Shown: positions 2,677 to 38,198 of the stretch, one piece after another
Numbering within the stretch: position 1 is the first letter of the stretch
How the letters are laid out: each line of letters starts with the position of its first letter
DNA from: Dimargaris cristalligena
Taxonomy: Eukaryota
Direction of reading: 5' to 3'
DNA: 38,198 bases
Assembly (NCBI GenBank): GCA_003614675.1
Contig: ML002362.1
Location: 1-38,198, forward strand
Translations under genes and position numbers: made by a program
Notes under the pieces: model-generated
Seen by the model: only the letters and a program-made list of their open reading frames with translations
What the model was told of the DNA's origin: nothing
The model's database searches: none

Positions 2677-3537
2677 TCACGGCAGCGAATCCGGGTGTTG
2701 GAATTGACAGGCAATTAGATGGTCTAAAAACATGATTTTTTCGGGGAATATGACTTTACAGCGAATACACACCAAGTTTTCGGCCACTTGGCATTCCCAC
2801 TCGTGCTGGTATAAGGCCCAAAGGAAAGTGCATTTAAAACTACAATTGGCGCAGCGAAACGGGTTGTCTTTGGGCCGGAATTTATAATCATTTGGATTAT
2901 AGGCTGGGTTGGGGTAGGGATGGGACAGTGTGGAGGTAAAAGGCGTTGGGTACATTGAGGTGGGGGGATACTGGAGCGGGAATATCGAACCGGAGGGCAA
3001 CGGATTTCGATATATGGGAAGGGAAGGAGCGTTAGGGATGGAGCTCGGATTGGGGTTGCGATTGGCGTATACTGGAAGGGGGTTTTGGTATATGGGAAGG
3101 GAAGGAGCGAAATTGGGGTTTTGGTGCATTGGAAGGGAAGGAACGGAGGGATGGTATACCGGAAGCGAGGCAGGGGGAATCTGATAAACCGGGGCAAAGG
3201 AATATGAATTGGGGTAGGTCGAGATTGAAGCAGCTGGACTCAGATAAACGGGGGGGGTTGGGTTCTGGTATACCGGCGTGGGAGGATAGAGCGGCATTTG
3301 GAACGTGATTTGTTGGGTCGGCACCGTTAAATACGATTCGGTGGTGTCGTTGTCGTTGTCGTTGTCGCCGTCAGATTCATCAGATGGTGCTGATGATTCG
3401 TCTTGACTAGGTTGGGATTTTTGGTCCCCCGCCGACAAAGATGCGGGAATAGAGGAGGGGTCGGTGGTTGGCCAGACTAATGCAATGGGGGTCTGAGGGT
3501 GGTGGGCGTTCGGGTGGCAGGTATTAGACTCATCCAT
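2677..3537 (-). CDS. 286-aa protein with an acidic N-terminal patch, (A)PSLP[IV]Y[QR]NP repeats and two C-terminal C-X2-C-X12-H-X3-C zinc fingers
   Basis: Intact ORF. Fingers are CANC-x12-HEWEC and CIRC-x12-HLIAC at about 2707-2853. An exact 21-nt repeat occurs at 3011-3031 and 3089-3109. Confidence 0.8.
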   Translation of the reverse strand: MDESNTCHPNAHHPQTPIALVWPTTDPSSIPASLSAGDQKSQPSQDESSAPSDESDGDNDNDNDTTESYLTVPTQQITFQMPLYPPTPVYQNPTPPVYLSPAASISTYPNSYSFAPVYQIPPASLPVYHPSVPSLPMHQNPNFAPSLPIYQNPLPVYANRNPNPSSIPNAPSLPIYRNPLPSGSIFPLQYPPTSMYPTPFTSTLSHPYPNPAYNPNDYKFRPKDNPFRCANCSFKCTFLWALYQHEWECQVAENLVCIRCKVIFPEKIMFLDHLIACQFQHPDSLP

Positions 3538-3772
3538 AATGAAACGAGAATTACGGGCGAATCAATCTAATTAGGAACGCGGGTTTCTTGGTAGACTAAA
3601 AAGAAAAAATGTATTTATTGATGCGCTAGGTGGCCTTGGCACTCCAATAAAAGGGGGGGTTGGGGGGCAAAAAGTGGATTTTTGGTGCAAAATGAAAAAA
3701 GCAAAGCATTCGGAAACGATGGATTGGAAAGGTGGTAAATCTCGAATGAGGGAGGGGGCGGCTCTCGTCTAT

Positions 3773-5153: not shown

Positions 5154-7214
5154 TTATTTCTTGCCGTTCTTCGTTGACTGTTGCTGCGTCGCCTCAATCG
5201 TATTGGAAATCTTCTTGAATTTAGCCACGAAGAACCCGTCCATATTATGGGTATGGGGGTAGTACCGTTTAGTCAAGTTCAGGGTAGGGAGGAAAGTTTG
5301 CCCTTTGAAAGCCGTGAACCCAGCTTGGCCAAAATCCAGACCCGTGTCGACTAATTTGACGTTGGGCCGTTTACGCAGGGCGTAGTCCACCACGGCCTCG
5401 TTTTCGTCCACAGTCACGGAACAAGTGGAGTAAACGAGGTATCCGCCGCCGGTGGTCGATTTGGCATTGGTGGAGTCAATGGCGGCCAGAATGAGTTCCT
5501 TCTGGAGTCGGGTCAGCATCCGGAAATCCTGTTCGGATTTGTTGACTTTAACCGAAGGGTCCTTTGAAATGACCCCGGTACCACTGCAGGGTGCGTCGAG
5601 GAGCACCCGGTCGAAACTGCCCATGACTTTGGGGTATTCACGGCCGTCGTAGTTGGCCACGGCGGTGTTATGGATACCCAGGCGGTGGATATTGGCGACC
5701 AGGGCCTTTTGGCGGTCCTTGTTGGCGTCATTGGCCAGGACGAATCCGGTGTTCTTCATCAACGAGGCGAGATACGTGGTTTTACCACCCGGGGCGGCGC
5801 ACATATCTAGGACTTTTTCGTGTTCGCTGGGGGCCAGGGCCATGACCGGTAGGAAAGAGGAGGCGGCCTGGATCATGTAGTGACCGGCCAGGTATTCGGG
5901 CGTAGCCCCCACGGGAACGGGCGATTCGAAAATCTGCAGACCCACTTTGGACCATTTGCCCACGGGTTCCAAATTGACCCCGCGCGCAATAAGGGCCTGG
6001 GCCAACTCCCGTTTCCGGGTACGCAGCGTGTTGGTCCGGATAATGACGGGGCGCTGGATCTCGTTGGCTTCGAAGAATTCCACGGCTTCGGACACGGGGA
6101 ATAGTTCGAACAGCTTCTCGATCATGTAGTCGTTGTAGCCGTAGTAGAGGGCCATATCCTTCAACAGACGGGCCACATAGTCGGCCCGGGACCGCTGGGG
6201 GTCACGCATGGCCTTGAAGTTATCCAGGATCTGCACCACGTCGCGGATCCGGGCGTTCACAGTAGCCAGGTCGGCGCCTTCGCTTTCCTCGTCGTTTTCA
6301 GCGTCGTCGAGGAAGAGGTGCGGGTCACCGTCGGCATCCTCGATATTCGTCTGCATGGCCGACTCCTCCAATTCGGCCTGCGACATGGCAGCTTCCTTGA
6401 GCAGCCGTTTGGTTTCACGGCGGGCCCGGGTCACGAAATCGCCCTTGTCGGCATCCTCGTCGTCGTCCCCACTCGATATATCACCATCGCTATCCTCCAG
6501 CTCGCTATCCGAGGCTCCGTCGAATTCGTCGGCACCCACGGAATCAGCATCGGAGTCGACATCATCCCAGAGCAGTTGCTTGCCGCCGGTTTGCTCAGCT
6601 TCGCTACCGGACAGGTATTCATCATCGGAAGGCAACAGCGAGTCGTCATCGCTAACCTCGCTTTCGGGTTCGGGAGGCGGGGCATTCTTGGTCGCCCGGC
6701 CCTTGGACTTGGACGGGCCTTGTGTGGGGGTAGGGGCGGCAGCCTTGACGGGCTTTGCCTCTTGGACGGACTTTTTGGCCTGGGTGGGTGTGGGCTTAGC
6801 AGTTTTGCCCTTGGGGGCCGATTTAGTGGGGGTGGGGGTGGGGACCGGAGCCGGAGTTGGGACGGCCTTGACCTTCTTACCGGCCTTGCTGGTATTTTTC
6901 TGGGAATCGGTGGCCGGCTGTTTCCGGACAGTTTCGGCCTCGGCGACAGCAGGGGCAGGGGCGGTGATCTTGGCCCTTTTTACAGTTTTGTTCTTGTTTT
7001 GCAAGGGATCGTTGGCCTGCCGTTTCCGGACTATTTCGATATCCGCGACGGCGGGAGCGGTGGGGATGGATGCGGCCTTGCCCTCGTCACCCGTCTTGGA
7101 CCGGTTACGCTTCTGAGTGGCGGCGGTAGTGACCCGACTCACATTTTTGCCCGTCCGGACTTCGGTGGCGAGGTCCTGGGGGACGCCCTGCTTGTTGTTG
7201 GATTTACGACCCAT
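5154..7214 (-). CDS. NOP2: 25S rRNA m5C methyltransferase Nop2 (NOL1/NSUN1)
   Basis: 686 aa. Motifs VLDMCAAPGGKT (SAM binding), LLDAPCSGTG (motif IV Cys), LVYSTCS (motif VI Cys), GATPEYLAGHY and HNMDGFFVAK. Basic then acidic disordered N-terminus. Confidence 0.98.
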   Translation of the reverse strand: MGRKSNNKQGVPQDLATEVRTGKNVSRVTTAATQKRNRSKTGDEGKAASIPTAPAVADIEIVRKRQANDPLQNKNKTVKRAKITAPAPAVAEAETVRKQPATDSQKNTSKAGKKVKAVPTPAPVPTPTPTKSAPKGKTAKPTPTQAKKSVQEAKPVKAAAPTPTQGPSKSKGRATKNAPPPEPESEVSDDDSLLPSDDEYLSGSEAEQTGGKQLLWDDVDSDADSVGADEFDGASDSELEDSDGDISSGDDDEDADKGDFVTRARRETKRLLKEAAMSQAELEESAMQTNIEDADGDPHLFLDDAENDEESEGADLATVNARIRDVVQILDNFKAMRDPQRSRADYVARLLKDMALYYGYNDYMIEKLFELFPVSEAVEFFEANEIQRPVIIRTNTLRTRKRELAQALIARGVNLEPVGKWSKVGLQIFESPVPVGATPEYLAGHYMIQAASSFLPVMALAPSEHEKVLDMCAAPGGKTTYLASLMKNTGFVLANDANKDRQKALVANIHRLGIHNTAVANYDGREYPKVMGSFDRVLLDAPCSGTGVISKDPSVKVNKSEQDFRMLTRLQKELILAAIDSTNAKSTTGGGYLVYSTCSVTVDENEAVVDYALRKRPNVKLVDTGLDFGQAGFTAFKGQTFLPTLNLTKRYYPHTHNMDGFFVAKFKKISNTIEATQQQSTKNGKK

Positions 7215-7299
7215 GGCGGCGATGGAGAGTGCAATTGGCTAGAGACGAGACTGGTGAAGAAAACCCCGAGGGAGACCGAAGGTACGAATAATATAGTAC

Positions 7300-11971: not shown

Positions 11972-12998
11972 CTGGGCTAGACCAGCGTAAATTGATTCCG
12001 AATAGTAATCGAAAGTGAAGAAGAGGAAGCTAATGGAGGTTCCGGTAGTCAAAGTATTTTGTAGGCTTAGAGATTCGCGCCATCCAATCCTACACCTGTA
12101 CCTATACAATTATTAGTAGAGGTGATTTTATTATAGGCAGGCTAACCGTACTCACGCTATCGCATACAAACCGCACACACACATACATCTCCACACACCA
12201 GCTTAACTTCATGCTTGCCTTAGGCTCGCTATAGACCCCCGGATGGGATATAATATATGGCTGGTTCCACATATTATGTCCCATGGGGGTGGCTGTTGTC
12301 ACAAACTTCTTTCATTTGATACTCTTGGTCGCAGCCAATTTAAGAGGGGATATAGTGGTATGGTGGTAGTGTTTATTATGCATTCGACAGTATTGTTATA
12401 TTCGAACCCCAGCCGAATAAAAACCTTCAGCCAGAAAACGGACTCAGCGCCGACCTGGGGTGGGGCACTATTAAAGTATATATATGCGCGAAGTCGTATA
12501 TATCTAGGGGAATGGGGTCAGCTGAGAGGGGGTTTAGCAAGAAACGCACAATACCTTCCCTCCTCTAATTACTGCTACTTTGACTATTGCCAGAGGTGGC
12601 TTACATTCGGTCTATTGGGTTTTCGCCACTAAACTAACCTACACAGCAGCTAGACCAGCAAGCCGTAGGAGTAGCGTGAATTTTGGCCACAAGGAAAGAC
12701 TGAGTAAAAAAGAGACGTATACAATTCCTTGTTTACAAAAGCTATCTTATGTTTGATTACTTGACCTTTCGCGTTTGTATGCGCTGACCACCTTTTTATA
12801 TATTCCTGAACTTCGCGGCATAGCATTCCTCCCCAACCTCTTTTTATTACTTACCCTCTTCGGCCATAGTTCTATTTCGTCATCTTTTCACCCAAAATCC
12901 GGGACATTCCCTTATCGCGTGTTCCCCCCCCCCCTCTCAATTATTGTCGCGGCTGTTGTATATCCCTCCCCCTAACCCCCGACACCTCCTAAGCTCGA

Positions 12999-14924
12999 AT
13001 GGGCTACAATCCCAGCCCCCGACAATCCACGACGTCTGGTGCTCCCGGCAAACTCTTAAACGAACCCACGACGGTCCCCCGCGGGCCCGTGGCGGCCACG
13101 GCTATCATGTCCCCACACCAAGCCCCCGCCGCTGCCTACCCTCCGCATGTACCGTATTATTACCACCCAACCACCAGGACCAAGGAGACTACCCATGCCC
13201 TACCACCTCCACCACCCGCTCCACCGGCCTACGTATCACCCCCATCCCCACAACCACAACACATGCCACAACCTCCTCCTTCGCATTGGCCCCCGACCCA
13301 GCCCACCGGTTCGCCCGGTCAGGTCGCTCGTCGAACCCATTGGACTCCCGCTTACCATAGTCCCATTCGTCTATCACCCATGGGCGCTCAGCCGACCCCA
13401 CTGCAGCAGCAGCACCACCAACAGCCACCACCACCACCGCTTCCTTCACGGCAACTGTACACATTCCGACCACCCATGGTCTCTCCCGTGGTACCTGCCA
13501 AACGACGACCGGCCGAATCGCCCCCCACACCGCACCACCACCACCAACCCACCCCCGAACCAGTCTACCGCCGGGCGGCCTTGAATCTACCTGACCCCGT
13601 GTCCATGCCCATGCCTGTCCCTACCGGTGGGAAAGGGTTAGGTTCTAAAAGGCCATTGCAACTGGCGCCAGCCCAGACTGCGAACCAGGGAGGAATTCAC
13701 GCACCCTATAGGTCCGTGCGGCCTAAACCGCGTCCGTCCCCGCCCGTCGCTTCGCCAACCGTCACCACTATTACCACTACTACTGCCCCTACCGCGATCG
13801 CTAGGTCGGGTAGTTCCATACCACCCCGGACTATTGCGGCCCGACCATTGAAACCGGTCCCAGCAACCCGAACGGCGCCTGCCCATACCCCCAACCCCCC
13901 TCCCTCCACCGCACCTTGGCCTGCCGCCGTTTCGTCGCTGAAAACAACAGCCACTACTACTACAACCGCCCCCGTCGGGTCCGCCACCAGCAGCGCCCGA
14001 CCCCGATCCAATAAATTCTCAATTGATTTTTTACTCCGTAAGGAAGTGGCGGTGCCCGCGGATTCGTTTCGGGCCCGGCCTCGACCACCGCCACCACCAC
14101 CAGCAGCAGCACCAATAATGTCATCCTTGTCTTCCACGGCGGTGGCCCCTGCGGTTCCAGCATCTTCCCGGACACAGCGATCGCCCCCTCCGCCATCCCC
14201 TACCTCTTCCTCTTTCCCCCAACGCCCACCCAGCCTACTTCCGGTGGCTGTGTCCGCAACATTGCAGAAAGTGGACCCATTGATTCCTACTAAATTAGCT
14301 ACGGCCCAGGTTCCCCCACCGGCATCATCATCCGGAGTTCCTACACCAACACCACCTACCCCGCGCATCACCCTTCAGTTTGACTCGTCGACCGCGGTGC
14401 CGAACCCCGCCACCGCCCCAACCACGTCTTCATCAAATACCTTCAAATCATTCGCCGATATTTCATCATCTTCTAACGCTTCCTTTCACTTTAGTATCCA
14501 ATCCACTTTCAAAGTCCCTCCGCAACCCTCAGCCCTGCGGCCACCAACATTGGCATTGGAATCTACATCACCATCGACACCAACATTGGTATCAACTTAT
14601 ACACCCTCCATCCCTCAGACCCACGCCCAGTCACCCATTTCCAGGGGTGATCCAGTCGCCTCCCGTCTCATCGGATTAACGGGATCACGGTGGTCCAACC
14701 CCATGACTCCATCATCCCCAATCACAACATTTCAGCCGTCTTTTTCGTTGTCGGCATCGTCATCATCATCACTATCGGCAAAACGCGTCAAGCTGGATAT
14801 TACTAATTCAAGCCCGGAAACCGATCGGTTCGGTGATTTTAATATTGACCAACAGTTAGAAGATATTGCCGATTTCCTCGAAAAAGATGTCGATTTGTTA
14901 TCTTCGGTGCGAACTTCAAAGTGA
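12999..14924 (+). CDS. 641-aa Pro/Ser/Thr-rich disordered protein with short linear motifs, NLS-like KRVKL and an acidic amphipathic C-terminal helix
   Basis: Long uninterrupted ORF with no recognisable globular domain. C-terminus contains FNIDQQLEDIADFLEKDVDLL. Confidence 0.85.
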   Translation: MGYNPSPRQSTTSGAPGKLLNEPTTVPRGPVAATAIMSPHQAPAAAYPPHVPYYYHPTTRTKETTHALPPPPPAPPAYVSPPSPQPQHMPQPPPSHWPPTQPTGSPGQVARRTHWTPAYHSPIRLSPMGAQPTPLQQQHHQQPPPPPLPSRQLYTFRPPMVSPVVPAKRRPAESPPTPHHHHQPTPEPVYRRAALNLPDPVSMPMPVPTGGKGLGSKRPLQLAPAQTANQGGIHAPYRSVRPKPRPSPPVASPTVTTITTTTAPTAIARSGSSIPPRTIAARPLKPVPATRTAPAHTPNPPPSTAPWPAAVSSLKTTATTTTTAPVGSATSSARPRSNKFSIDFLLRKEVAVPADSFRARPRPPPPPPAAAPIMSSLSSTAVAPAVPASSRTQRSPPPPSPTSSSFPQRPPSLLPVAVSATLQKVDPLIPTKLATAQVPPPASSSGVPTPTPPTPRITLQFDSSTAVPNPATAPTTSSSNTFKSFADISSSSNASFHFSIQSTFKVPPQPSALRPPTLALESTSPSTPTLVSTYTPSIPQTHAQSPISRGDPVASRLIGLTGSRWSNPMTPSSPITTFQPSFSLSASSSSSLSAKRVKLDITNSSPETDRFGDFNIDQQLEDIADFLEKDVDLLSSVRTSK

Positions 14925-16444: not shown

Positions 16445-18964
16445 TTAGTTCGTTGAGTGATCATGATTGGGAGGTTTCCCACCCATCGGCAACATGGAGG
16501 TGGAAGTGGGAATACTAGGTCGATCACCAGATGAAACAACAGTTGGTGAAGCCGGGTGAGATTTCGCCCCTACTTCCGAAAACATCATATTGGAGGGGTG
16601 TGTGGACTTTCGAGACAATGGGGCATTGGGGTAAAAAGGTGGGCGGGATGTCGAATAATCAGGTCTGTGGTCGTACGGTCCCGGATGACCAGAGGCGTGG
16701 GGATGATTAATACCATCACCTCGTCCTGGTCCCGCGGGACCGGACGGGTATACGGGAAAAGGGGCGGTAGTGGGGTGAGGGGGTCGGTGTGAACGAGCTG
16801 CTGGGTCAGGATAGGATGGTATAGAGGCAAAACCCCCTGGTATGGACGTCGTGGTGGTGGGTGAGGTAAAACCCATGGGGCTCCATTGCGAGGGCCGCTC
16901 CGATGAATCCGGCAAGTATCGCGGAAGGGAAGAGTCAGAGGGACCTTCAAGAGTCGGCAGGGGTCCAAACCGATACATATGGGTACCGGATAAGCGGGGG
17001 GACTTCATGGCGTAACGATCTTTCTCTCCGCCAGCCGAGCGTGGGTCATCCCCCGTCTCACCCATCGCCGAGGGGTCGGTAGTGATGTCGGGCAGGGGCC
17101 GTTTTGGAGCGCTGCCCCTACGGGGTCGAGTGACATCCAGTTGTAATCGAAGATCAGCCACTTCTTTCTGGAGCGCTTCGTTTTTCCGTTCCAATTCCAG
17201 AATATAGGCTGCAGACCCGGGGGATCGGTTCGTTGCAGATGGCGCTGGGGCTGGGGCTTGATTAATACCGCCGCCACTACTGCCTTGGCGAGTGGGCTCG
17301 TATGTGCCATGCCAGCTCCGCGTGAAGGGGCCCTCGTTGGGACCCGCCGAATTTGGAGTGGAGGGTTCGCCCCCAAAGCTTCGACCGGGCGACATGGCCG
17401 GTCCCTTGCCTTTAGGGTCAGCTAGTGAGGAGTGGCCGTGAATGGGAGGGGGGCCCGCGTAGGACAGTCGTCGTTCGTGTGAAGGCCAATTCTCGCTCCC
17501 CGATGCCGGCAGGGGTGGGAAAGTAGTACTGATAGGTCGATTCCACGTGGCACTAAACCCCGGCGAGCGAATATTGGTTTGGGGTTCGGGAAGATGAAGC
17601 TCATTAATATGACTAGGGTCGCCGGGGTTTGGTCCAGCATGGGCCACTAGATTTTCGGTGACCATTGTGGGATAGGAAATTCGGCGTGGCAACGACGAGC
17701 TATAGCTGGTACCTGCTGAGTCGGGTGAAAAAGGCAGGGGCTGGGTGGGTGGAACCCGTGCCGACACGGGACGTTGATCTGGATAGGGAGGGTGGTCCTC
17801 AGCCGGTCGATAAACGGGGGCATCGGATGGTCTTCGATGGGGGGACGACAACAGTTCAGGCTCACGGCCGTACCGCATCCCACTGGTATAGGGCGGGGGT
17901 GCTCCTACCAACTTAGCCTCTAAATAGGGATCAGTAGGGTGCCGTTTCAAATTCTGCGGGGGAGACTGGGGCACAGGGGCGGACCAGTAGCCCTGATTAC
18001 CACCCGGTCGGGCCGGATGGCGGTGTTCACTCTCGGAACCGGGGTCTTTCGTAGTGATGGACAAAGGATGGGCTTTACCCAACGAGGATGATGAGCCTGG
18101 AGGTTGACCAGACGGGGGAGGGGCTTCTTTCATAATAGGTAGGGAGGTCATGATAGACCTCGGTGGTGACCGGGATTCCTCCATTAGGGGATGCGAGCTG
18201 GATGGGCTGGCAGTAGGTACATTGCCCTGGCGACTGACTTTTTGGTTCATGTTACAGGCGTGCCCATTCTCGGCCCGGAGATGGCGACTAAGCGCGTCCA
18301 TTCGAGCAAAGGGTCGCTGACATTTCGGGCAAATAAATGGTTTTTCCCCCGTGTGGCCCTTCATATGACGTTTAAGATCGTGTTGGCGCCGAAATTGGTG
18401 CGAGCAAGTGGTGCAAATAAAGGGTTTGTCATGACTATGGACCATGGCGTGGGACTTCAGATTATGTCGGCGGGGGAAGACGGATTGGCAATCGTCGCAC
18501 TGGAATTGGGGAGACTTATCAGATCCAGAAGTGGGTTGTTGGTCGCCCGTAGAGGTTTGCAGTCGGGTCGGGTGGGACACGCGACGGGGACTAGGGAAGT
18601 GGTCCTCGGCCCCTGCGATCCCAGCGCTGCTTGGGGGCGGCCAGCCGGAATACCCGTCAGAGTGGGGATCGTCTGAGTCGTGGGGAGCGCCTACAGGGGC
18701 GCTATGCGGGCCGGAATGGGGCAGATGGTAGATGGAGACTTGGGTATGCAGACGAGGGGCTGGGTGGTCCACAGTCGACCCAGGGGGGCTCGTGGGATAG
18801 CCCGAGGTGGGCGACCGGGCCTCTGAGTAAGAGACTCCGGCAGAGGTCTGCAGCGGGGGCAAATAGGTATTAGGAGTCGGTCCCGGGATAGAGGCGGGTT
18901 GTGAAGAGACCGACTTGGGCGGATCCCGGGAACGATCACTTTCCCTTTTATCGGTGGGGTTCAT
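16445..18964 (-). CDS. C2H2 zinc-finger transcription factor (3 fingers, Crz1-like recognition helices) with a C-terminal coiled coil, 839 aa
   Basis: Fingers FQCDDC..RRHNLKSH, FICTTC..RQHDLKRH and TGEKP-FICPKC..ARMDALSRH. Zipper-like segment YILELERKNEALQKEVADLRLQL. Confidence 0.93.
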   Translation of the reverse strand: MNPTDKRESDRSRDPPKSVSSQPASIPGPTPNTYLPPLQTSAGVSYSEARSPTSGYPTSPPGSTVDHPAPRLHTQVSIYHLPHSGPHSAPVGAPHDSDDPHSDGYSGWPPPSSAGIAGAEDHFPSPRRVSHPTRLQTSTGDQQPTSGSDKSPQFQCDDCQSVFPRRHNLKSHAMVHSHDKPFICTTCSHQFRRQHDLKRHMKGHTGEKPFICPKCQRPFARMDALSRHLRAENGHACNMNQKVSRQGNVPTASPSSSHPLMEESRSPPRSIMTSLPIMKEAPPPSGQPPGSSSSLGKAHPLSITTKDPGSESEHRHPARPGGNQGYWSAPVPQSPPQNLKRHPTDPYLEAKLVGAPPPYTSGMRYGREPELLSSPHRRPSDAPVYRPAEDHPPYPDQRPVSARVPPTQPLPFSPDSAGTSYSSSLPRRISYPTMVTENLVAHAGPNPGDPSHINELHLPEPQTNIRSPGFSATWNRPISTTFPPLPASGSENWPSHERRLSYAGPPPIHGHSSLADPKGKGPAMSPGRSFGGEPSTPNSAGPNEGPFTRSWHGTYEPTRQGSSGGGINQAPAPAPSATNRSPGSAAYILELERKNEALQKEVADLRLQLDVTRPRRGSAPKRPLPDITTDPSAMGETGDDPRSAGGEKDRYAMKSPRLSGTHMYRFGPLPTLEGPSDSSLPRYLPDSSERPSQWSPMGFTSPTTTTSIPGGFASIPSYPDPAARSHRPPHPTTAPFPVYPSGPAGPGRGDGINHPHASGHPGPYDHRPDYSTSRPPFYPNAPLSRKSTHPSNMMFSEVGAKSHPASPTVVSSGDRPSIPTSTSMLPMGGKPPNHDHSTN

Positions 18965-27576: not shown

Positions 27577-29251
27577 ATGAACCCTCCCGGTGTCTTAGCG
27601 GACAGCCGCATTCCCACCGTTAATGCCGCCGAATTTAAGTTTCAGGCTCCGACGAAATCCATTCGCGTTCCCGAGGACATTCCCGTATGGCTGCGATCCC
27701 GGGCATTCGACCTTATCATGACCTATCTGACGGAACTGAACGATAGTGTCAAGGGAACCCCCAACTCCACTCCCTGCCCCTCTTCCAAGGTAAGTCCCCC
27801 CTGAATCCGTTCAGCAGGGCAAACTCTACTCTACTCTTTTACTTTATTTCCAGTTCCGTGAAATGCAGGGTTAATCCTGGTCTTTCATGTAAGAGCGGTT
27901 CTTGATACGGAGTATTGTATACCCGGGGTTGAATATGCCGAGAAACGGTTTCGATGAATGGGCCACTGACAACTCGCTATTATATATATATATATATATA
28001 TTCACCCCACTATATATTTTACACTGGAACCTATCTCCTCTACCTTGGCATCAACCCCGCCTCCTACCCCCCTCCCGATAGTCAATTGACCGGGTCCTTG
28101 AACTGCTCGACACAATCGACGACTACATCACCCTTATCCCACCTGACCAGTCGGCTCAATCCCGCTACGGTAACCCCGCCTTTCGCCAGTTTATCAAACA
28201 TCTTCAGCAAAACGCCGCCGCAATCCACCGCCCCCTACTAAACGAGTCCCCCGCTATCACCACCCCCGCCTCAAAAACAACAACAACAACCACAGAAACA
28301 ACTGCTACTACTACTACTACTACCACTGCCGACGAGCATCCCGCCCTGGTCGAACTCGTACCCTATCTTACGGGTAGTTTCGGCAATGAAACCCGGATTG
28401 ACTACGGGAGCGGCCACGAATTATCTTTTTTTGTTTGGTTACTCTGTCTCCAACGCCTGGGGTACTTTCCCCCGTCCGACCGGGTAGCTCTGGTGGTCCG
28501 TGTATTCAGTCGGTACTTGGACATTGCCCGGCGGCTTCAACTCACGTACCGTTTGGAACCCGCCGGTAGTCACGGCGTGTGGGGATTAGACGACTACCAA
28601 TTTATTCCGTATATTTTCGGGAGTGCCCAGTTTATCGGTAAGTAAATGGTGGTGGTGGTTCGGCTGGGTTGGGTTGGATCCCGCGTTGGCTCATTGTGGG
28701 TCTATAGCTTGATTTTTTTTATGGGTTATCACCCCCCTACTATCAGTGTATCATATTATTTTCGTATTAACCAAGCCCTAGGTATTATTTTTGGGATAAT
28801 TTTATCCTCTTCCGACCTCCCTCCCTTTTCTTCTTCTCACGACAACGACAATAATCTATTTCCTATCCATTTTTAATTTCTGTTTACAGGTTCAACTAGA
28901 TACACTCCCGCCATTATCTCCGAAAACGAACAGGCCGCTTCCCTCGCCCCGGATTATATGCTCATGCGCTGTATCCAGTTTATCAAGGATATCAAACAGG
29001 GTCCGTTTTTTGAACATTCCCCGGTCCTCCATGATATTTCGGGAGTTCCCTACTGGACTAAAGTGAACAAGGGGCTCCAGAAGATGTACGTTGGTGATGT
29101 ACTATCCAAATTTCCCGTGGTCCAGCATTTGCCTTTCGGTAATTTGATCAAGTTCGAACCGTACCTACCCGGTTTGGCAGTGGAATCCAGTGAGCCCAAG
29201 GTTTTATCAACGACCGGTAGTTTGTCGGTGAATTGTCCCAGGCCATGCTAA
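27577..29251 (+). CDS. PTPA: PP2A phosphatase activator PTPA (Rrd1/Ypa family), 3 exons, 376 aa
   Basis: Exons 27577-27789, 28082-28637 and 28890-29251 (GT-AG, 1131 nt). Motifs SRYGNPAFR, GSFGNETRIDYGSGHEL, LEPAGSHGVWGLDDY, GPFFEHSP and VLSKFPVVQH. RRD1 versus RRD2 not resolved. Confidence 0.96.
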
Positions 29252-29865
29252 ATACATTCACATATATCTAACCATTAAAGACCACACAGGCAAATCAATG
29301 TTTGCCATAGTTTATATAGACCAATATTTCTGGACATCTCAGATATTCACTTTATTATTTGAACTGCTGTATAGTTAGGGCCATCACATAAACGAGTTAC
29401 CAACATAATGTTGGTAAGAAAGTAAACCTTTAGAATGGAGCACGGCTAGGTACAGTAGATACCATATTTAATTGGATTCATAACAGTATTGCCGAAAGGT
29501 CATGTCGGGGGATCTTGTAGAGCAGACTATCATTGCAATTGGAGCAAACAAAAAACAGGACAATCGGTGTCAAACGTATATAGATACATATCAGCCTATT
29601 TATATGCGTAAAACTCAATGTATGTGTATATGTATAAATGAACAGCCGTAATCGGGAAAAATAGCGAGTTGGCCTAGTAGGTAACGAGGGATCACGGAGA
29701 TTGGAGCAAATTGAGTAAAGAACACCGCCTAATAGCAAACATTAACCTTGGTTGCTGAGGAGCAGCACCTAGTCGACATGAAATTGTAAGGGTGGAGAAG
29801 GTGATGGGGAGAGGATAGAGCGAGCGAGAGAAGGATATCATTGGTTCAGCAAGATTGACCTGTAC

Positions 29866-32222
29866 TTAAGGGTAGCCATACCCGCCGTAACCCGGGGGAT
29901 GGTAATAGTAAGTGCCATCGGGTCCCTGGTAGGGAATATTTCCGGTATAAAGCGGGGGCGGGGGGATTTTAGGGCCGTAGTAAGGGGATGCGCCTCGGGG
30001 CGGCGGAGGGACACTCGGCGGAAGGGGGTACGCGTGCGGATGGTGGCCGTGGTTCATGTAGCCATGATTATTACCGCCTTTGGCAGCCGACGGGTCTACG
30101 GATGCTGACTGAGCACCCATAGAGGCGTTTGCTTCCGATTGGGGGTTGGGTGTCGCAGCTTGGGGGCCCTGAAAATTATACCCACCACCACTGCCCGTTT
30201 GCGGAGCCGACGAGCTGGCTGCGGCATTCCGGGTCGGCTTGGCCGCTCCTACATTAGAGGTATTATCGGCACCCGTGGTTTTGTTAGCATTGTTGGTAGT
30301 CGCGGCGGCGGCGGTGGGTTTGCCATTCCCAACATTGGCGGGTCGCTGGGGCACCGGCGGGGGTACTTTGGACTGGATGACAAAGTTCGGGTTGTTTTCG
30401 GGGCCCATCTGGGATTGGCTGTCACCATTGTCGGGGCTGGTTGCCATGTAGTTATCGCTGGCATTAGTAGTAAAGGCCGAGGAGCTATTGCGTACCGTCC
30501 GTTGCTTCCCAGCGACGGTGCGGTAATTACCACCCGTGTGACCAGGGTCCTGGGAAGCCCCATCCCGTGGGTCGTATTTAAGGCCAGCCGTCGAAGTCTG
30601 ACCGTAGGTGGACGTGTTCGGGTACACCAAAGAGGCCGCGGAACCATGCTGCTGTTGTTGCTGTTGCTGTTGGGGTTGATTCTGATAACGGTTCTTCGGC
30701 GGTTCCGGGGTAGGTGGGTTTTGCGAATAGGCCTCGTTGGCTGCTTGGGCCCCAGCTTGGGACTGACGGTCGGATTCGCTGTTGTTTGCGGTTTGGGTTT
30801 TATAGGCTGCGAAGTTGGGGTCTGCCGAAGGGTAGTCGGAGGTAGACTGGCGTTGGGCGGGCGGTTGCTCTCCGTCTTCCGACTGGGTTGGCGCATAGGA
30901 TTGGTTGGATGAGCGTTGCTGTTGCTGTTGCTGCGCGCCCCCCGCTCGACCACCGTAGCCCTCACTGGAATGGGTGCCATTTTGGACAGGCGGTGTCTGG
31001 GCTGGGTTGTAAACGGGTGAAGCCACGTCGGGGGAATTGTAGGAGTGGTAGGTGGTTGGGGCACCCACTTCGGGAGGAGCAAGCTGGCTGGGGGATGCTG
31101 TTGCGCGTCGCGGGGGTCGGTTGGCCTGATTGGCTGGGGTATAGTCCTCGGTGGCTTGGTAGGGTTCGGACGGAACAGTGTGGTTCTGGTTCCCGGGACG
31201 TTGAGTAGGCTGTTGCGACTGATATGCCGCGCCGTTGCTATAACGACGCGGTTGCTTTTGCTGCTGCTGCTGTTGTTGTCGCTGCAGCAACTGGGAATCA
31301 ACAGCAGTACGGTCGGGGTCGATACTAGTCGGAGGATTAGCATACATGGACGATCCGTCTTTGAACATAGCACTGGTGCCAGTTACACGGCGACTGTTGG
31401 CGGGGGTATCGAACAAATCCCCAACGTCGGAGACTTGGTGGGGACGGTTATTGAGTGGGCCGCCTGCCGCGGGGGCCGGAGGGGCGACGGTGCCAAGCTG
31501 GCCCGTCTTGGTATCTCCCCCACCGGGTCTGGGGAATTCATCCAGCAGCATATCCAGACGACGCTGGGTCAGACTCAGGTAACTGCGCATCAACTCCAGG
31601 GCGTGGTCACTAATCTGCAGATGCTTGGCGTGGGATACGGCTTGCTCAAATTCGTCCCCTTCGAAGCCGGGCAGGGGACACCGCAACGTGTCGTAAATCT
31701 GCAGCTTCAGGTAATGCGTGTTGGCCAAGGCCCGGCGGAGGTCAGTGTCACTTTCCATGCATACGGGGTCACCTTCATAGTCCAGGTAATGTATGATTAG
31801 GTTGGTCGAGTCCGGGCTAAGCCGGTTCCGGAAACGCTGGTGGATGACCTGGCGAAGTTTAGTGTAGTCCGTGTCAGCATTAAGGGACATGCGCCGAGTT
31901 TCGGTGCGGATATTACCTAGAGGGGGAGGGTATTCAGGGGGTAAGATAAGGAGGAGTTCGGGTTAAGGAATAGCCGGAATGAGAACGTGGTCGGGATGAG
32001 GCAGGGGTGTCGGAGTTCGAACCACAAAAAAAGGTAGGTATTAATAAGCGTCAGTGGGCAGAGTGGTTGCCCACCGGTATGGTGGAATTCGCGGATTGGT
32101 GGAAAGGAACGCGCCCATAGGCTTAGACTCCCCGGGCCGTACTTACATTTGACTTCAATGTAGCGTACGGGAGCCGCTGTGTAAGGGCTGGCCCGTGGGA
32201 CCGCTGAATGAGCTGGATTCAT
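29866..32222 (-). CDS. TFG-like protein: N-terminal PB1 domain, short coiled coil, long Q/P/Y-rich disordered tail; 2 exons, 708 aa
   Basis: Exons 32222-32147 and 31916-29866, intron GTAAGT..CTAG. The spliced N-terminus IEVKCNIRTETRRMSL..IHYLDYEGDPVCMESDTDLRRAL has both the PB1 Lys and the OPCA acidic motif. Confidence 0.88.
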
Positions 32223-33225
32223 GGGAGGGCGGTAGGGGATGGATTCGAAACAGAAACCAATAAAACGCGGTTAAGAAATACGAAGTAATAGAGGAGGATA
32301 AGGAGACGATATGAGTGGTCTCTGTGACCTCGAGTAGGGATAGTAGTAATAGGAATAGTAGCAAGCCTGGAAAGCGGCTGAACACGAGGACTTCCAATTG
32401 ACGCGGAAAGAGTTGGGGAAACACAATAGCAATAGCGAAGGACGGTAACGACGAGGTCTGCCGATACGGAGAAGAAGGGGGGAGAGTTAAGGAATAGTAA
32501 ACGGGAGTGAAGAAAGAAACAAAGTCACCGGGCCAGTCAGGGTGAAGCATAAGTAAGGGCCCCGTTGAACAGCCCAGGCAAGGGAAATAAGAGGGAAACC
32601 ACTCCGCTGCTTTAATGCCCGCTTGGAATCCCGACCACTACAAAAGAGTGAGTGTATCAATGGGAGTGTATATACGCACACTACGCTATTCACACTGTGG
32701 GGTCTGCTTTATACCTGCCTAAAAAACACTCTTCCGCGCTTGTGACCAACTCCGCGCACTCTTCTCAAAACAGCTCAATTGGTCCCCAACAGCATCTCCC
32801 ACTCCTGCCAAAAAATAATATATATATATATCCATCAACTTAACGCGTATTGTGACCAAGCGGACGTCCAACAGCAGTATATAGATATTCCGATTGAGTT
32901 GTCGATTAATAAATAACAACCATAACAATATTACAGTGAGGGAGGCCAAATCGGTGTTTAACATGCCACGCGTCATCCCGACCGCCATACATCTGGGGGA
33001 GGCTAGGTCGGCTTAACGTCACCCGACAACTCAGTGCAGTAGTCACCATCCTTCCGGCCATAACCCGCTACCCCACAGCCAACCCCCCACCCGTCTTCTC
33101 CCTTAAAAATGAAGCTACATCTATGCAAATAATACAAACAATAGATAAATGTGCGTGGTTCTATTTATTTTAGCTTACATTAAAAGGATTTTTTTTAAAA
33201 AAAGGTAGGTAGATAAATGGGCTAT

Positions 33226-35226
33226 TTAATCGTCCAGTATAATAAATTCATCAGTTAGCGGAGGAGTTACCCGGGATTTCTCGGCATTCCGGTCTGCATC
33301 GAGTACAATGGTCCGGAAATCCCCCGTTGACAACGACCGGGAGCGTGCTGCCGCCGCCTCCTCCTCCTTCTCCTGCGCCTTGGCTATTTTGGTTTGGTCG
33401 GGAACCAGTTCTGTGTCCGCCTTGCGTTTCGCTGCCGCTGCAATCGCCAGTTGGGTGGGGTGGGGTGGAGACTCGGGAGAGTTGGCCAGGGCGGAGTGGG
33501 CAGCTGCCACCCCGGGGGACATTTCCAACCGACTGGGGTCCGTCAGGACCAGGGGCGGCAGCTGGTCGTTATCCTCAGGGGTAGGGGTGGTGGTAGTGGT
33601 CGCCACCAGCCAGAAGCTCACGGGCCAGATGTAGGGGGGCAGGGTATCCTCCGATGTCAGCGACACCGTCTGGTTAGTACCTAGACCAAGGTCCGCAAAA
33701 GTCCGGTCCAGATTATCGTCAAAGTCGGGGTCATATAAAATACGCCCGCCCTCCTCGATAATGAGGTCGTCCCCGAGTAGCAATTGGGTGGCGTACTTTT
33801 GGGCCAATTTTAAAAAATCGCCTAAAGTAGCCCGCGTGGGATCGACTTCCAGAACCGCATACCGACGTCGACAAGTCGCGCAAGTCGGGGAGGGAGCGGC
33901 CAATTTTTCGTTGTACAGCAGTCGGGGTCGAGTGGTGTCCTGGACCAAATAGGTGGTTTGGCAGCTCGGCGGTAGATGATTGGCGTTTCCGAAGCCACAC
34001 CGGCGGAGGGTATTAGCCTGGAGGGCGATGAGACCGGCAATCACGGCATTGGTCGTGGCAATCGCCGGGATAATATTGCCGGCCATCGCCTTAACGTCAA
34101 ACTGGGACTGCGGGGCAATATGGAACACGAGGGAACGGAGATTGGCCGTGGCCGTGACAAAGTCTAGCATATCGGGGTCATCCTTATCGAACGACATGCC
34201 CGTTTCCGACAGGGCCGCTTCGGGCAAGGTGCCATCGTCAGTAGTGGGGTCAAGGCGGCCCGTTAACTTGGCGAAGCGCCGCGCGAGTCGGGCAATACTG
34301 TCGCTGAACACCCGGATTGTCTCGGCTTGGTCCCACACCCGCTGGGCCGCCAGTCCCGTGGCCCCTCCTCCCCTCCCTTCGGCCGCAGGATCCCCCGTGG
34401 CCGGGGCAGTCCCGGTGGGAAAGGTCATGGGGGTGGGTTTCGTGCGAGTGGCCCACATGTCCTCCATGGACAGCAGCCGCCGGATATCGTGATCAAATAC
34501 CTTTTGGAATACCTCCCGGGCGAACGTATCCTTAAGCATGTGGAGTCGGAGCCGCTTAAGGGCCGTGGCCTCGAGTTGCAGGTTCCGGATTTCCTCGGCA
34601 TTGTCACTCCCGCCTTCGGTGGTTTGGGTCATGGTGGTGGTGCTGTCCTCATCCCCATCCCCAGCGAACCCAAATAACTGACTAAAGAGATAGTCCTTGG
34701 CCCACACGATGCAGTGGATCGGGGTGCTGGGGGTACTCCGAATAGTACAGATGGGAAACGTGACGGGGACCGGTTAAGGCTGGCAATCGAAACATTCGGT
34801 GCGCCCGCCGTGGATTACGGTGACTTGGCCCTGGTAGCCCGCGGTGCCAGACTCCAAAAGAGGTCGGTTAGTCACCAGACAGAGCCGGTTCACGTAACGC
34901 CGGGCCTCGAGATTATCCAGGGCATTCAGCACCAGATCAAAGCGGGCGAACCACCGGGCATCGAACTTGGGGTGCATGATATTATCGTGGTAGGGGGTGA
35001 CGCGAGCATTCGGATTGAACCGGCGTACGGCGGCGGCGGCGACCTGGGCCTTGGACTGACCGATATGGCAGCGCTGGAAGAGGAACTGGCGGTTGAGGTT
35101 CGATAGGTCAATGGTGTCGAGATCTACCACGTGGATGTCTAGAAAGCCGCTCAGGACGAGGTTTTTCAGCAGCTCGCAGCCGATACCGCCGGCACCGACC
35201 ACCAGAACACGCGTTTCGGCGGACAT
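33226..35226 (-). CDS. UBA2: SUMO-activating enzyme E1 catalytic subunit Uba2/SAE2 with one in-frame TAA at 34774-34776
   Basis: Track ORFs 34774-35226 and 33226-34707 share one frame. Motifs [59 protein letters not shown] (catalytic Cys), [14 protein letters not shown], second CxxC (CATC), NLS KRKA and C-terminal SIM-like FIILDD. Confidence 0.95.
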
Positions 35227-35868
35227 GAGGAAATGGGACGAGACGTGCGGGGGGAGAAGGTGGAGAAATAAAGAAAAGGTATTATAAAGGTAAGGACGAG
35301 GCTAGCGAGGCCGGTTGGGAAGTTGGGAAGATTACGCAAGGGAATGTGAATGGACTTGGAAGACTAGCCTAGGCTTGGTGAAAGGTGGGGGGGGGGTCCC
35401 AAACTAGCAGCAGTCAGAGGAAAGGGTGTATAGGGGCGTGCGCGTGTAAGTTAGAAGCAATGTGAAGGTCATTCCATTGAGAGCAGCGGCATGCATCAGT
35501 TATCCAATAAGGTCTGGTCGATTATTGCGGGTTTCGCTTGCAAGAAGCGGCTATGTACCGCTGCGGTTACTTGCTTGAGGAGGATTTAGAGAAAAAAAGG
35601 GGGGAGAGAAGAAACTACAGGGGGGACCAATGAACCACTATTTCCAAACACCTAATACAAGCTGTCGTTTGTAGGCCCAGGGTGCGTTTCAATCGCTGCC
35701 CTTCTCCCTTACCACTCTACTGCTCGTTATTGCTTTGTTTATTTACCTTTATATTGAGCAGTTTTGGTATTTGAAGCTCCGTTCGTCGGTCTATTTGAGA
35801 CCCCGCTGAATTGGTGGACCTTCCCGATCCACTATAACCTCACCCTCCCCATCACTTGGGCTAGGCCA

Positions 35869-38198
35869 ATGTCCATTATTCGTCTAGGCCGCTCTTCGTG
35901 TAAACCCCTTCGTTTTAACCAGCCCGTCCGCGCTTTGTCCCGACGACTTGCTACTACGCTCTATACTGCCCCCGGCCAGCCATTCTCTGTCAACTCCCCT
36001 GTCGTAGGCCCAAACCATATACACCCACTATTGGCCCAAAAGCGCACATTAATTAGTCCCGGCTGTTCAATCGATGGTTCCGTAGAAACCCTCGAGGCTG
36101 CTCTCCAACGGCAAAATGGCGAATTTGCCCGACGTATCTACCAGCAGCTGCGCCTTAAGGGCCATGTAGGCCTGTTGACCCATAGCCACTTTCGCGCCTT
36201 ACACCGGGGTTTGGAGGGGGACTCTGACCCGTCTCCATCGGAACTTATCGAGGACAATGGTCCCACTTTGTTAACGGTGACCTTGGACTGGGCGTGGTCC
36301 AGTCTAGCCGTGGGGATTCCTTCGGGATGTGTGGGTGATAGCCACCACTACTACTACTACTCGCCCCCTACCGACCTGTGGCAAAATCGGATCAGCACAA
36401 AAGCTACGGGTGATAGATCGTCGAGATTAAATCGATCTACTTCGCGATCGGGCGGTCCTATCGCATCGATAACGTGGTGCCCTCCAGCCCTATCGGTTCA
36501 TCCCACTAGCCATCTGTGCCGCCGGGCCCCTTCCACGAATCACTTGACGGTTATAATCCAGACCCTACTAAACCTGGGCCAAACCTCCTATGTAGTCCAG
36601 CTGATCCACTGGCTGCTCTGCCACCATCACCATTTACGACGACCTTTACTGAGTCGGGCCGTGGCGGCCTTCCACGACCGGAACGACGCTGATGCCATCC
36701 ACCAGCTACTCACCCTAGCGGAGCGCCACCGTACCATACCCCAGAAACTGGCCTTTGACCGAGCTTTGGCCACTTATATACGGGCCGGCTGGCACGACCG
36801 GGCCTGGCTCCTATGGCAACACTGGCTAGCGACCTACGTTCCCCTGACTACCTTTGCGGCCAGCCGACTCCTGGAATCCCTGGGCACCCGGCGGGCCCGA
36901 ACCCCGATCTTGGCCGTCTATGCCGCCTGGCCCACGTTGCGGATGCGTCCGGACCGCCGGGTCTACCATTGCTTGATAGCGGCCCTGGGCGCCGTACGGT
37001 GTGCCCGACAGGCCTGGGCCGTCTATCGTACTATGGTGGCCACGGGGGTGCGGCCCGATAGGGCGACTTATAGTACGTTACTCAACGCGCTCCTGCCGGC
37101 CGCTCAGGTTCGTTGGATCCAAACGTGCCATGGTTACCTGATCCGGACGGCCGGACTGGTCTGGGATGCCGCCATTTATATTGACCTGATTTGCGCCTAC
37201 GCCCGGTGTAGGGCGGCCGGTCCGGTCCGCCGCTTATACATCCATTTACAGGCGTCCGGTTTACCCATTACTGCCGAAGGCTACACTCGGTTGTTAGGGG
37301 CCTTGGGCTACCTCCAGGATATGCCCGGGGTACTGGGTCTATTCCATCGACTCGTGGCTCACCAACGTCTTCCTACTAGCCCTAAGGAAATCCAGGACCA
37401 TCCATCTGCCAACGTCTATCATGTCGGGGCCACTCTCACCGCCTGCTTAGTCAATCGCCAGTATGATACCGTAGCTACCATTCTGCGCCAATTTGACCTT
37501 CTCCAACTTCCCGTATCCACCCCACTGCTCAACCTTTTGCTCCGCTACGCGCTCGAAACCCGGCAATTAGCAATGGTATCGGTCGTCTGGGACCGATTCG
37601 CTTCCGACCATTTGTACCCCGATACGACAAGCTACCGCCATTTGGTATCAGTTCATTGCACCCAGGGCCAATTCAACCGGGCCCTAGGTTGCTTGGTTGA
37701 AATGGACCGAACCCAGATTACCCCACGCACACCGGCCCTGGACAATCTGATTTATCAGTTTATCCATAATGGGAAACAGTCCATACCCCATTTGGAAGCC
37801 TTATGCCAGTACCTAAAACCTCACTTCGCCGAGCTGGCCGAGTCTACCGTCAGCCTGTTTCTTAATCTATGCCTCCGGCTAGGGGCCGGTCGGCGGTGCC
37901 TTCCCCTGATCACACATATGGAACAGCACCCGCGGTCCGACGACTGGGACACCCCGGCGTTGGGTCTGGTCATGTTGCAATTGGGGACTAAATTGGGGGA
38001 CTCGGCCCTGATGGCCCGGTGGGTGGCCCGGGCGGTCAAACGGGGCTGGTACCAGCGACATTTCCGGCTGGCCACTTGGGTTCTCCGCTTCGATATCCAA
38101 TGTGGTCGGATAGACCTGGAGCGGCTCGACATAATGTACCAGCGGGTAATGACAATGGGGATATCCGCAGGTAATCACCCCGCTAAACCGGGCCTTCT
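35869..38198 (+). CDS. Pentatricopeptide-repeat (PPR) protein, probably mitochondrial, truncated by the window edge (missing from the ORF track)
   Basis: ATG at 35869 and open for about 776 codons to the window end. Arg/Ser-rich, acid-free N-terminus MSIIRLGRSSCKPLRFNQPVRALSRRLA. Repeats of about 35 aa such as PDRRVYHCLIAALG..AWAVYRTMVATGVRPDRATYSTLLNAL and PDTTSYRHLVSVHCTQGQFNRALGCLVEM. Confidence 0.9.
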   Translation, partial: MSIIRLGRSSCKPLRFNQPVRALSRRLATTLYTAPGQPFSVNSPVVGPNHIHPLLAQKRTLISPGCSIDGSVETLEAALQRQNGEFARRIYQQLRLKGHVGLLTHSHFRALHRGLEGDSDPSPSELIEDNGPTLLTVTLDWAWSSLAVGIPSGCVGDSHHYYYYSPPTDLWQNRISTKATGDRSSRLNRSTSRSGGPIASITWCPPALSVHPTSHLCRRAPSTNHLTVIIQTLLNLGQTSYVVQLIHWLLCHHHHLRRPLLSRAVAAFHDRNDADAIHQLLTLAERHRTIPQKLAFDRALATYIRAGWHDRAWLLWQHWLATYVPLTTFAASRLLESLGTRRARTPILAVYAAWPTLRMRPDRRVYHCLIAALGAVRCARQAWAVYRTMVATGVRPDRATYSTLLNALLPAAQVRWIQTCHGYLIRTAGLVWDAAIYIDLICAYARCRAAGPVRRLYIHLQASGLPITAEGYTRLLGALGYLQDMPGVLGLFHRLVAHQRLPTSPKEIQDHPSANVYHVGATLTACLVNRQYDTVATILRQFDLLQLPVSTPLLNLLLRYALETRQLAMVSVVWDRFASDHLYPDTTSYRHLVSVHCTQGQFNRALGCLVEMDRTQITPRTPALDNLIYQFIHNGKQSIPHLEALCQYLKPHFAELAESTVSLFLNLCLRLGAGRRCLPLITHMEQHPRSDDWDTPALGLVMLQLGTKLGDSALMARWVARAVKRGWYQRHFRLATWVLRFDIQCGRIDLERLDIMYQRVMTMGISAGNHPAKPGL

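What the first reader, a model, noticed from the sequence alone, without database searches (positions are those of the whole stretch)
34774..34776. Single in-frame UAA in an otherwise pristine UBA2, 9 codons before the catalytic cysteine
Seen: the minus strand reads TGC CAG CCT TAA CCG GTC CCC GTC ACG TTT CCC ATC TGT ([12 protein letters not shown]). It is exactly colinear with the family motif (human SAE2 CHPKPTQRTFPGC, from memory), so TAA stands at a Lys position. No indel or GT-AG microintron removes it, and the other 665 codons show no decay. Established: a 150-aa product would lack the catalytic Cys and could not activate SUMO; yeast UAA readthrough inserts Gln, Tyr or Lys, and +4 C is the leakiest context. 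Inference: an assembly error or recent AAA>TAA allele is most parsimonious; otherwise recoding (readthrough or RNA editing) gates SUMOylation.
Basis: partly seen in the sequence, partly recalled or inferred. Interest (0 to 1): 0.75.

Follow-up and report, generated by a model that had tools for sequence, protein, structure and literature searches.

The report
False stop codon in fungal UBA2
The stop codon that seems to break this fungus's SUMO-activating enzyme gene is a one-letter error in the genome assembly, most likely copied from a DNA-amplification artefact, and the real gene is intact and ordinary.

Summary
The TAA at 34774-34776 (minus strand, codon 151 of 666) is in the window as described, nine codons before the catalytic Cys160 of the only UBA2 found in the assembly. 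It is not in the organism's DNA: 4 of 4 DNA runs laid (3 samples, 2 studies) read T at + strand 34776, giving AAA (Lys), and a second Dimargaris cristalligena record, P0002, is full length with Lys151. The window's wrong base appears only on a 57-nt junction piece in run X4. Its length, matched span, flanking contig breaks and depth fit an inverted chimera joining 34775 (+) to 32844 (-) through 3 shared bases, the typical artefact of whole-genome amplification (PMC1855051). How that base won in the consensus is inferred, and pooled depth does not explain it simply. The public gene model P0003 skips the false stop with a 123-nt intron that deletes the active site. Readthrough and editing are not needed; no RNA run was listed. 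An unchecked scan note reports another inverted assembly error in this genome. Verdict: artefact.

The parts
33226..35226 (-). UBA2 (SUMO E1 catalytic subunit) coding sequence, single exon, 666 codons plus terminal TAA
   Evidence: Translation; Pfam ThiF 7.9e-59 and UBA_E1_SCCH 3.2e-11 over cut-off, UAE_UbL under cut-off; P0002 (665 of 666 identical) has SAE2 as best PDB match, 6.3e-113 against 3.3e-58 for UBA1
34774..34776 (-). Codon 151: TAA in the assembly, AAA (Lys) in the runs' DNA; equals human SAE2 K164
   Evidence: (table 3)
34776..34776 (+). The erroneous base: A in the window, T in X1, X3, X4 and X5
   Evidence: table 3: depths 53.7 of 53.7, 51.8 of 51.8, 21.3 of 21.3, 195.9 of 195.9; the only listed substitution against the window in X1, X3 and X4
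34747..34749 (-). Catalytic Cys160 (human SAE2 C173)
   Evidence: Alignment; Cys in 119 of 120 rows, gap only in P0003; role of C173 from passages of PMC12489036
34783..34794 (-). First CxxC pair (Cys145, Cys148); zinc-binding role recalled, not tested
   Evidence: Cys in 119 of 120 rows at both columns
34746..34778 (+). First arm of the 57-nt junction piece in run X4 (record 21, depth 85.9): 33 letters on the window with no other letter, so it carries the window's A
   Evidence: table 8; predicted length 57 and matched span 34746-34778 both reproduced from coordinates
32815..32844 (-). Inferred second (inverted) arm of the junction; shares 3 bases with the first arm's end and supplies the wrong base
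   Evidence: X4 contigs break exactly here (record 15 ends 32844, record 19 starts 32815); 24.3 letters at depth 85.9 are unexplained in bin 32684-32990, and 0.0 in four other bins; the letters themselves were not shown
34696..34818 (-). 123-nt GT-AG intron implied by public model P0003; almost certainly false, it deletes residues 137-177 including Cys145, Cys148 and Cys160
   Evidence: P0003 equals the Lys-read protein over the first 136 and last 489 residues and lacks the 41 between; all other 119 rows keep these columns

Best explanation
The gene is a normal, intact, single-exon UBA2 with Lys151 (AAA). The TAA is a one-base consensus error (shown). The wrong base most likely comes from an inverted chimera made during whole-genome amplification of one sample: a strand ending at 34775 re-primed through 3 shared bases on the opposite strand at 32844, 1.9 kb away, and was amplified to high depth (strongly constrained, but the junction letters were not seen). 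The chimera's first three bases past the joint differ from the true sequence only at the first one. The assembly kept the true path but took that one base from chimeric reads (inferred). A gene predictor then hid the false stop inside an invented 123-nt intron (P0003; the skip is shown, its cause inferred).
For: 4 of 4 runs laid read T at + 34776; X1 bridges the site in one piece over 29000-35926, X3 and X5 over the whole 9199 bases, with no allele branch listed. P0002, a 666-aa conspecific record, has Lys151. The window's base occurs only on X4 record 21, which is 57 nt with 33 letters on the window; a true SNP branch would lie wholly on the window. The junction predicted from coordinates gives length 57, a match over 33 nt ending at 34778 and 24 letters left. 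Only 4 of 18398 strand-positions of the laid stretch fit the constraint, and one is exactly X4's other contig break. The depth table holds 24.3 (23.9-24.7) unexplained letters at depth 85.9 in the bin of the second arm. X1 has a second fold-back joint nearby, 522 bases apart with 5 shared bases, and depth in X1 and X4 is very uneven. PMC1855051 reports 85% of MDA chimeras inverted, mostly under 10 kb apart, primed on 2-21 shared bases.
Against: The library type of the runs is not on record, so amplification is inferred. The 24 other letters of record 21 were not displayed (tables 7 and 8 were cut) and the joint is not listed in table 5. The chimeric base is 80% of depth at the branch in X4, but pooled over the three laid runs of study P1 it is the minority (85.9 against 126.8). 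The window also holds sequence that X4's contigs do not cover (37302-38198), so a plain majority vote does not explain why it won. Contigs drop rare variants, so a rare real allele is not excluded. X1 and X3 are one sample; P0002 shares X5's Leu419 and may come from the same DNA, so it should not be counted as a further independent source.
Confidence: 0.97

Rival explanations
1. A real, rare or nucleus-specific AAA>TAA null allele, masked by wild-type nuclei, which the assembler happened to keep.
Against: That piece leaves the window after 34778, so it is not an allele branch. X1, X3 and X5 bridge the site with T at their full listed depth.
Confidence: 0.01
2. The X4 junction is a real inverted rearrangement in some nuclei or spores of sample S2 (a fold-back of the 3' two thirds of UBA2), and the TAA is a consensus blend of it with the intact gene. 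The TAA itself would still be an artefact.
For: The junction has high depth (85.9), and 32815-34775 is deeper (71.5) than either flank (43.5, 21.3) in X4.
Against: Seen in 1 of 4 runs laid; its form (inverted, 1.9 kb, 3 shared bases) is the commonest MDA chimera type; X1 has a different fold-back nearby.
Confidence: 0.015
3. Recoding: the genomic TAA is read through or edited, and this gates SUMO activation.
For: Only the window's own letter, the conservation downstream, and the single copy.
Against: The DNA has AAA in 4 of 4 runs laid. The closest relatives listed (Dispira, Tieghemiomyces, two other Dimargaris species) have Lys. The gene's own terminator is TAA, at the point where P0002 ends, and 4 of 5 long window ORFs checked end in TAA, so TAA is not reassigned.
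Confidence: 0.003
4. The stop lies in a real intron, as public model P0003 has it.
For: A GT-AG pair at 34818-34696 keeps the frame.
Against: It deletes Cys145, Cys148 and Cys160, kept in all other 119 rows. 33 of 33 candidate introns remove Cys160. P0002 holds the region as coding.
Confidence: 0.002

Closest known systems
UBA2/SAE2, catalytic subunit of the SUMO-activating enzyme (human SAE2, PDB 9dqb_B, 6xog_B, 1y8q_B)
   Same: Colinear over residues 5-501 of P0002; ThiF and SCCH domains; Lys151 = K164 and Cys160 = C173
   Different: Nothing of note once the base is corrected. The C-terminal ubiquitin-fold domain scores under Pfam's cut-off (22.7 against 30.8 bits), and P0004-P0007 also lack that precomputed hit.
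Inverted chimeras of multiple displacement amplification (Lasken and Stockwell 2007, PMC1855051; abstract, Background and first part of Results read)
   Same: Inverted joint, arms under 10 kb apart (1931 bases), 3 shared bases at the joint, present in one library
   Different: Here the chimera did not rearrange the contig; it seems to have left only a single wrong base. That the runs were MDA libraries is inferred, not on record.
Programmed stop-codon readthrough or RNA editing of premature stops in fungi (recalled, not looked up)
   Same: Superficially, an in-frame stop in a conserved gene
   Different: There is no genomic stop in the runs' DNA and none in relatives.

Membership tests
UBA2/SAE2 | Best match to SAE2 rather than UBA1, UBA3 or UBA4 | tested here: met
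   P0002: E 6.3e-113 to SAE2, 3.3e-58 to UBA1, 7.5e-46 to the NEDD8 E1 subunit; nearest homologs are named uba2
UBA2/SAE2 | Catalytic cysteine at the C173 position in an open frame | tested here: met
   Cys160; frame open with AAA in 4 of 4 runs laid
UBA2/SAE2 | C-terminal ubiquitin-fold domain | tested here: inconclusive
   UAE_UbL E 1.5e-4, 22.7 bits, under the 30.8 cut-off
UBA2/SAE2 | Partner SUMO in the genome | tested here: met
   An exon at G000:C1087 matches SUMO, E down to 5.2e-24
UBA2/SAE2 | Partners AOS1/SAE1 and UBC9 in the genome | not tested
   No AOS1-specific search; the ThiF family search listed 7 matches (a lower bound), none of which I identified as AOS1; UBC9 not searched
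UBA2/SAE2 | SUMO thioester formation | not testable with these tools
   Needs a bench assay
Stop-codon recoding site | Stop codon present in the genomic DNA | tested here: not met
   AAA in 4 of 4 runs laid
Stop-codon recoding site | Stop conserved in relatives | tested here: not met
   Lys in 118 of 120 rows, Arg in 1, gap in 1; these are protein records, so a stop would show only as a gap
Stop-codon recoding site | RNA or peptide evidence across the codon | not testable with these tools
   No RNA holder listed
MDA-type inverted chimera | Inverted joint of arms under 10 kb apart with 2-21 shared bases | tested here: met
   1931 bases apart, 3 shared bases; length, span, contig breaks and depth agree. 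The second arm is inferred, its letters were not displayed.
MDA-type inverted chimera | Library made by whole-genome amplification | tested here: inconclusive
   Library not on record; uneven depth and a second fold-back in X1 point that way
MDA-type inverted chimera | Absent from other libraries and from unamplified DNA | tested here: inconclusive
   No such branch in X1, X3 or X5, which bridge both ends; whether any of them is unamplified is not on record

The most novel reading that the evidence does not exclude
Some nuclei or spores of this fungus really carry a damaged UBA2, either as a rare TAA allele or as the inverted fold-back seen in run X4, and survive beside wild-type nuclei.
Probability: 0.025. 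Interest if true: 0.3.

Novelty: not a real feature. Interest (0 to 1): 0.05.

Why it matters
Biologically it does not: the gene is an ordinary UBA2. There are two practical points. First, the public model P0003 lacks the active site because of this error, so anyone using it could wrongly conclude that the fungus has a dead SUMO E1; P0002 is the sound sequence. Second, it is a worked case of an amplification chimera leaving a single false base in a contig whose layout is correct, so lone in-frame stops in this assembly should be checked against reads before they are interpreted.

Tried and rejected
Second UBA2 copy: none found. A protein search of G000 gave 8 matches from 8 candidates, of which only the window's is UBA2-like. 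The others are UBA1 (C758) and UBA4 (C288) by Pfam architecture, a UBA3-like gene (C467, judged by eye) and a ThiF-only protein (C204). A DNA search gave 1 match, the window itself; these searches are lower bounds. A second 'TAA inside' hit (C467) briefly suggested a reassigned code, but it is the alignment running into an intron donor. TAA reassignment rejected. Microintron rejected, 33 of 33 candidates. No RNA holder listed: no evidence either way on expression. A paper search on false stops and spurious introns (listing only) gave nothing I used; I make no claim about what is or is not in print. A word search of the scan's notes for chimera-made stops found 0. No fold or complex job was run, as none could change the verdict. 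Readthrough context rules were not looked up.

Full report
1. Observation. The minus strand of 33226-35226 translates to 150 residues, a stop, 515 residues and a final TAA. The internal stop is codon 151 at 34774-34776, and Cys160 lies nine codons on. Read with Lys at the stop (P0001), the protein has ThiF and SCCH domains over Pfam's cut-offs. The near-identical P0002 matches human SAE2 best among solved structures (E 6.3e-113). The offset to human numbering is 13, so the stop stands at K164 and Cys160 is C173, the cysteine that forms the SUMO thioester (passages of PMC12489036). Among the 120 best-listed of 6094 homologs, this column holds Lys in 118, Arg in 1 and a gap in 1. All 33 frame-keeping GT-AG or GC-AG introns of up to 200 nt that span the stop also remove Cys160. 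No second UBA2 was found in G000 by protein, DNA or family search (lower bounds).

2. The DNA does not have the stop. Five public DNA runs hold the stretch; I laid four of them (X1, X3, X4, X5: at most 3 samples, 2 studies) on 29000-38198. All four read T at + strand 34776, at depths 53.7, 51.8, 21.3 and 195.9, which makes codon 151 AAA, Lys. It is the only listed substitution against the window in X1, X3 and X4. X1 bridges the site in one piece over 29000-35926; X3 and X5 bridge the whole stretch. X1 and X3 are one sample and may be the source of the window, which makes their disagreement with it the more telling. X5 differs at 14 further places and looks like another isolate; within UBA2 these are two silent changes and Pro419Leu. 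A second public record of Dimargaris cristalligena, P0002, is 666 residues long, has Lys151, and differs from P0001 only by Leu419. It may therefore derive from the same DNA as X5, and I count the two once.

3. Where the wrong base comes from. One piece does carry the window's base: X4 record 21, 57 nt long, depth 85.9, with only 33 letters on the window (34746-34778) and no other letter (table 8). An allele branch would lie wholly on the window, so this is a junction. With 30-base overlaps at both ends (the overlap seen between neighbouring X4 records), a 57-nt piece implies 3 shared bases at the joint and fixes the first six bases of the second arm. Four of 18398 strand-positions in the laid stretch fit. 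One starts at 32844 on the minus strand, exactly where X4's contigs break a second time (record 15 ends at 32844, record 19 spans 32815-34775). The junction computed from these coordinates has length 57, matches the window for 33 nt up to 34778 and leaves 24 letters, as observed. The depth table gives an independent check: the listed pieces explain four X4 bins to within rounding, while bin 32684-32990 holds 24.3 (23.9-24.7) unexplained letters at depth 85.9. So record 21 is very probably an inverted joint between points 1931 bases apart. Past the joint, its first base differs from the true strand and the next two agree by chance, which is why it can pass as a single substitution. Lasken and Stockwell (PMC1855051; abstract, Background and first part of Results read) found 85% of MDA chimeras inverted, mostly under 10 kb apart, primed on 2-21 shared bases. 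X1 shows a different fold-back nearby (36448 to 35926, 5 shared bases), and depth in X1 and X4 falls more than tenfold within the stretch. An earlier, unchecked note of this scan (e1-7199279) calls an inverted piece in another gene of this genome an assembly error.

4. What is not shown. The library type is not on record. Record 21's other 24 letters were not displayed, and the joint is not in table 5. The chimeric base is 80% of depth at the branch in X4 but the minority when the three laid P1 runs are pooled (85.9 against 126.8). The window also holds sequence that X4's contigs lack, and its G run at 35386 equals X1's, not X4's. The assembly step that picked the base is therefore unknown. 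No RNA run was listed, which says nothing about expression.

5. Knock-on error. P0003, a 625-residue public model on a contig of the same length as the window, equals P0001 over the first 136 and last 489 residues and lacks the 41 between. This corresponds to a GT-AG intron at 34818-34696. It removes Cys145, Cys148 and Cys160, which the other 119 rows all keep. It is best read as a predictor's way round the false stop.

6. Rivals. Recoding needs a genomic stop, which the runs do not have; relatives have Lys; TAA ends this gene and 4 of 5 long window ORFs checked. The other 'TAA inside' hit in G000 (C467) is an alignment running into an intron donor. A SUMO gene is present; AOS1 and UBC9 were not checked. 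A real fold-back in some nuclei of sample S2 cannot be excluded without unamplified DNA, but it has the commonest form of an amplification artefact and occurs in 1 of 4 runs laid.

7. Verdict. Not a real feature: an intact, ordinary UBA2 with a one-base assembly error (confidence 0.97; that the base comes from the X4 chimera, about 0.9). Interest 0.05. The most novel reading left, a damaged UBA2 in a minority of nuclei, has probability about 0.025 and would deserve about 0.3. Supplementary files were not consulted and bear on no claim here.

Noticed in passing
window 35897-36448: Run X1 record 5 folds back from 36448 (+) to 35926 (-) with 5 shared bases, and X1's depth falls from 53.7 to 12.2 and then 4.2 there; a second inverted chimera that left the consensus unchanged.
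   Followed up: partly
window 35386-35387: The G run upstream of UBA2 has a different length in each run: as the window in X1, one more in X3, two more in X4, one fewer in X5.
   Followed up: no
window 29000-38198: X5 differs from the window at 14 places besides 34776. Of the 9 that fall in the three long ORFs, 6 are...: silent at 30226, 31201, 33562, 34849, 36045 and 37839; missense at 33971 (UBA2 Pro419Leu) and at 37894, 37949 and 38158, three changes clustered at the end of the PPR gene (10 in ORFs in all: 6 silent, 4 missense).
   Followed up: partly
window 34774-34776: The true Lys151 corresponds to human SAE2 K164, reported as an acetylation site that biases SUMO paralog use (PMC12489036, abstract start and passages seen); it is Lys in 118 of 120 mostly fungal homologs.
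   Followed up: no
window 5154-7238 (-), 16445-18964 (-), 28082-28645 (+), 29866-31962 (-), 35758-38196 (+): Neighbours by Pfam: RsmB/F-type rRNA methyltransferase (NOP2-like, name recalled), C2H2 zinc-finger protein, one exon of a PTPA phosphatase activator, PB1-domain protein, and a PPR protein that runs off the contig end.
   Followed up: partly
window 12993-14924 (+) and 2677-3561 (-): Two long proline-rich ORFs (643 and 294 codons stop to stop) with no Pfam match.
   Followed up: no
L003 around 1500 (G000:C467): The 'TAA inside' flagged in the UBA3-like match is the alignment running into a GTAAGT intron donor, not a second in-frame stop.
   Followed up: yes
L022 (G000:C1087:1300-2700): Multi-exon SUMO gene. 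No AOS1- or ULA1-like subunit was recognised among the 7 ThiF matches listed for G000 (a lower bound).
   Followed up: partly
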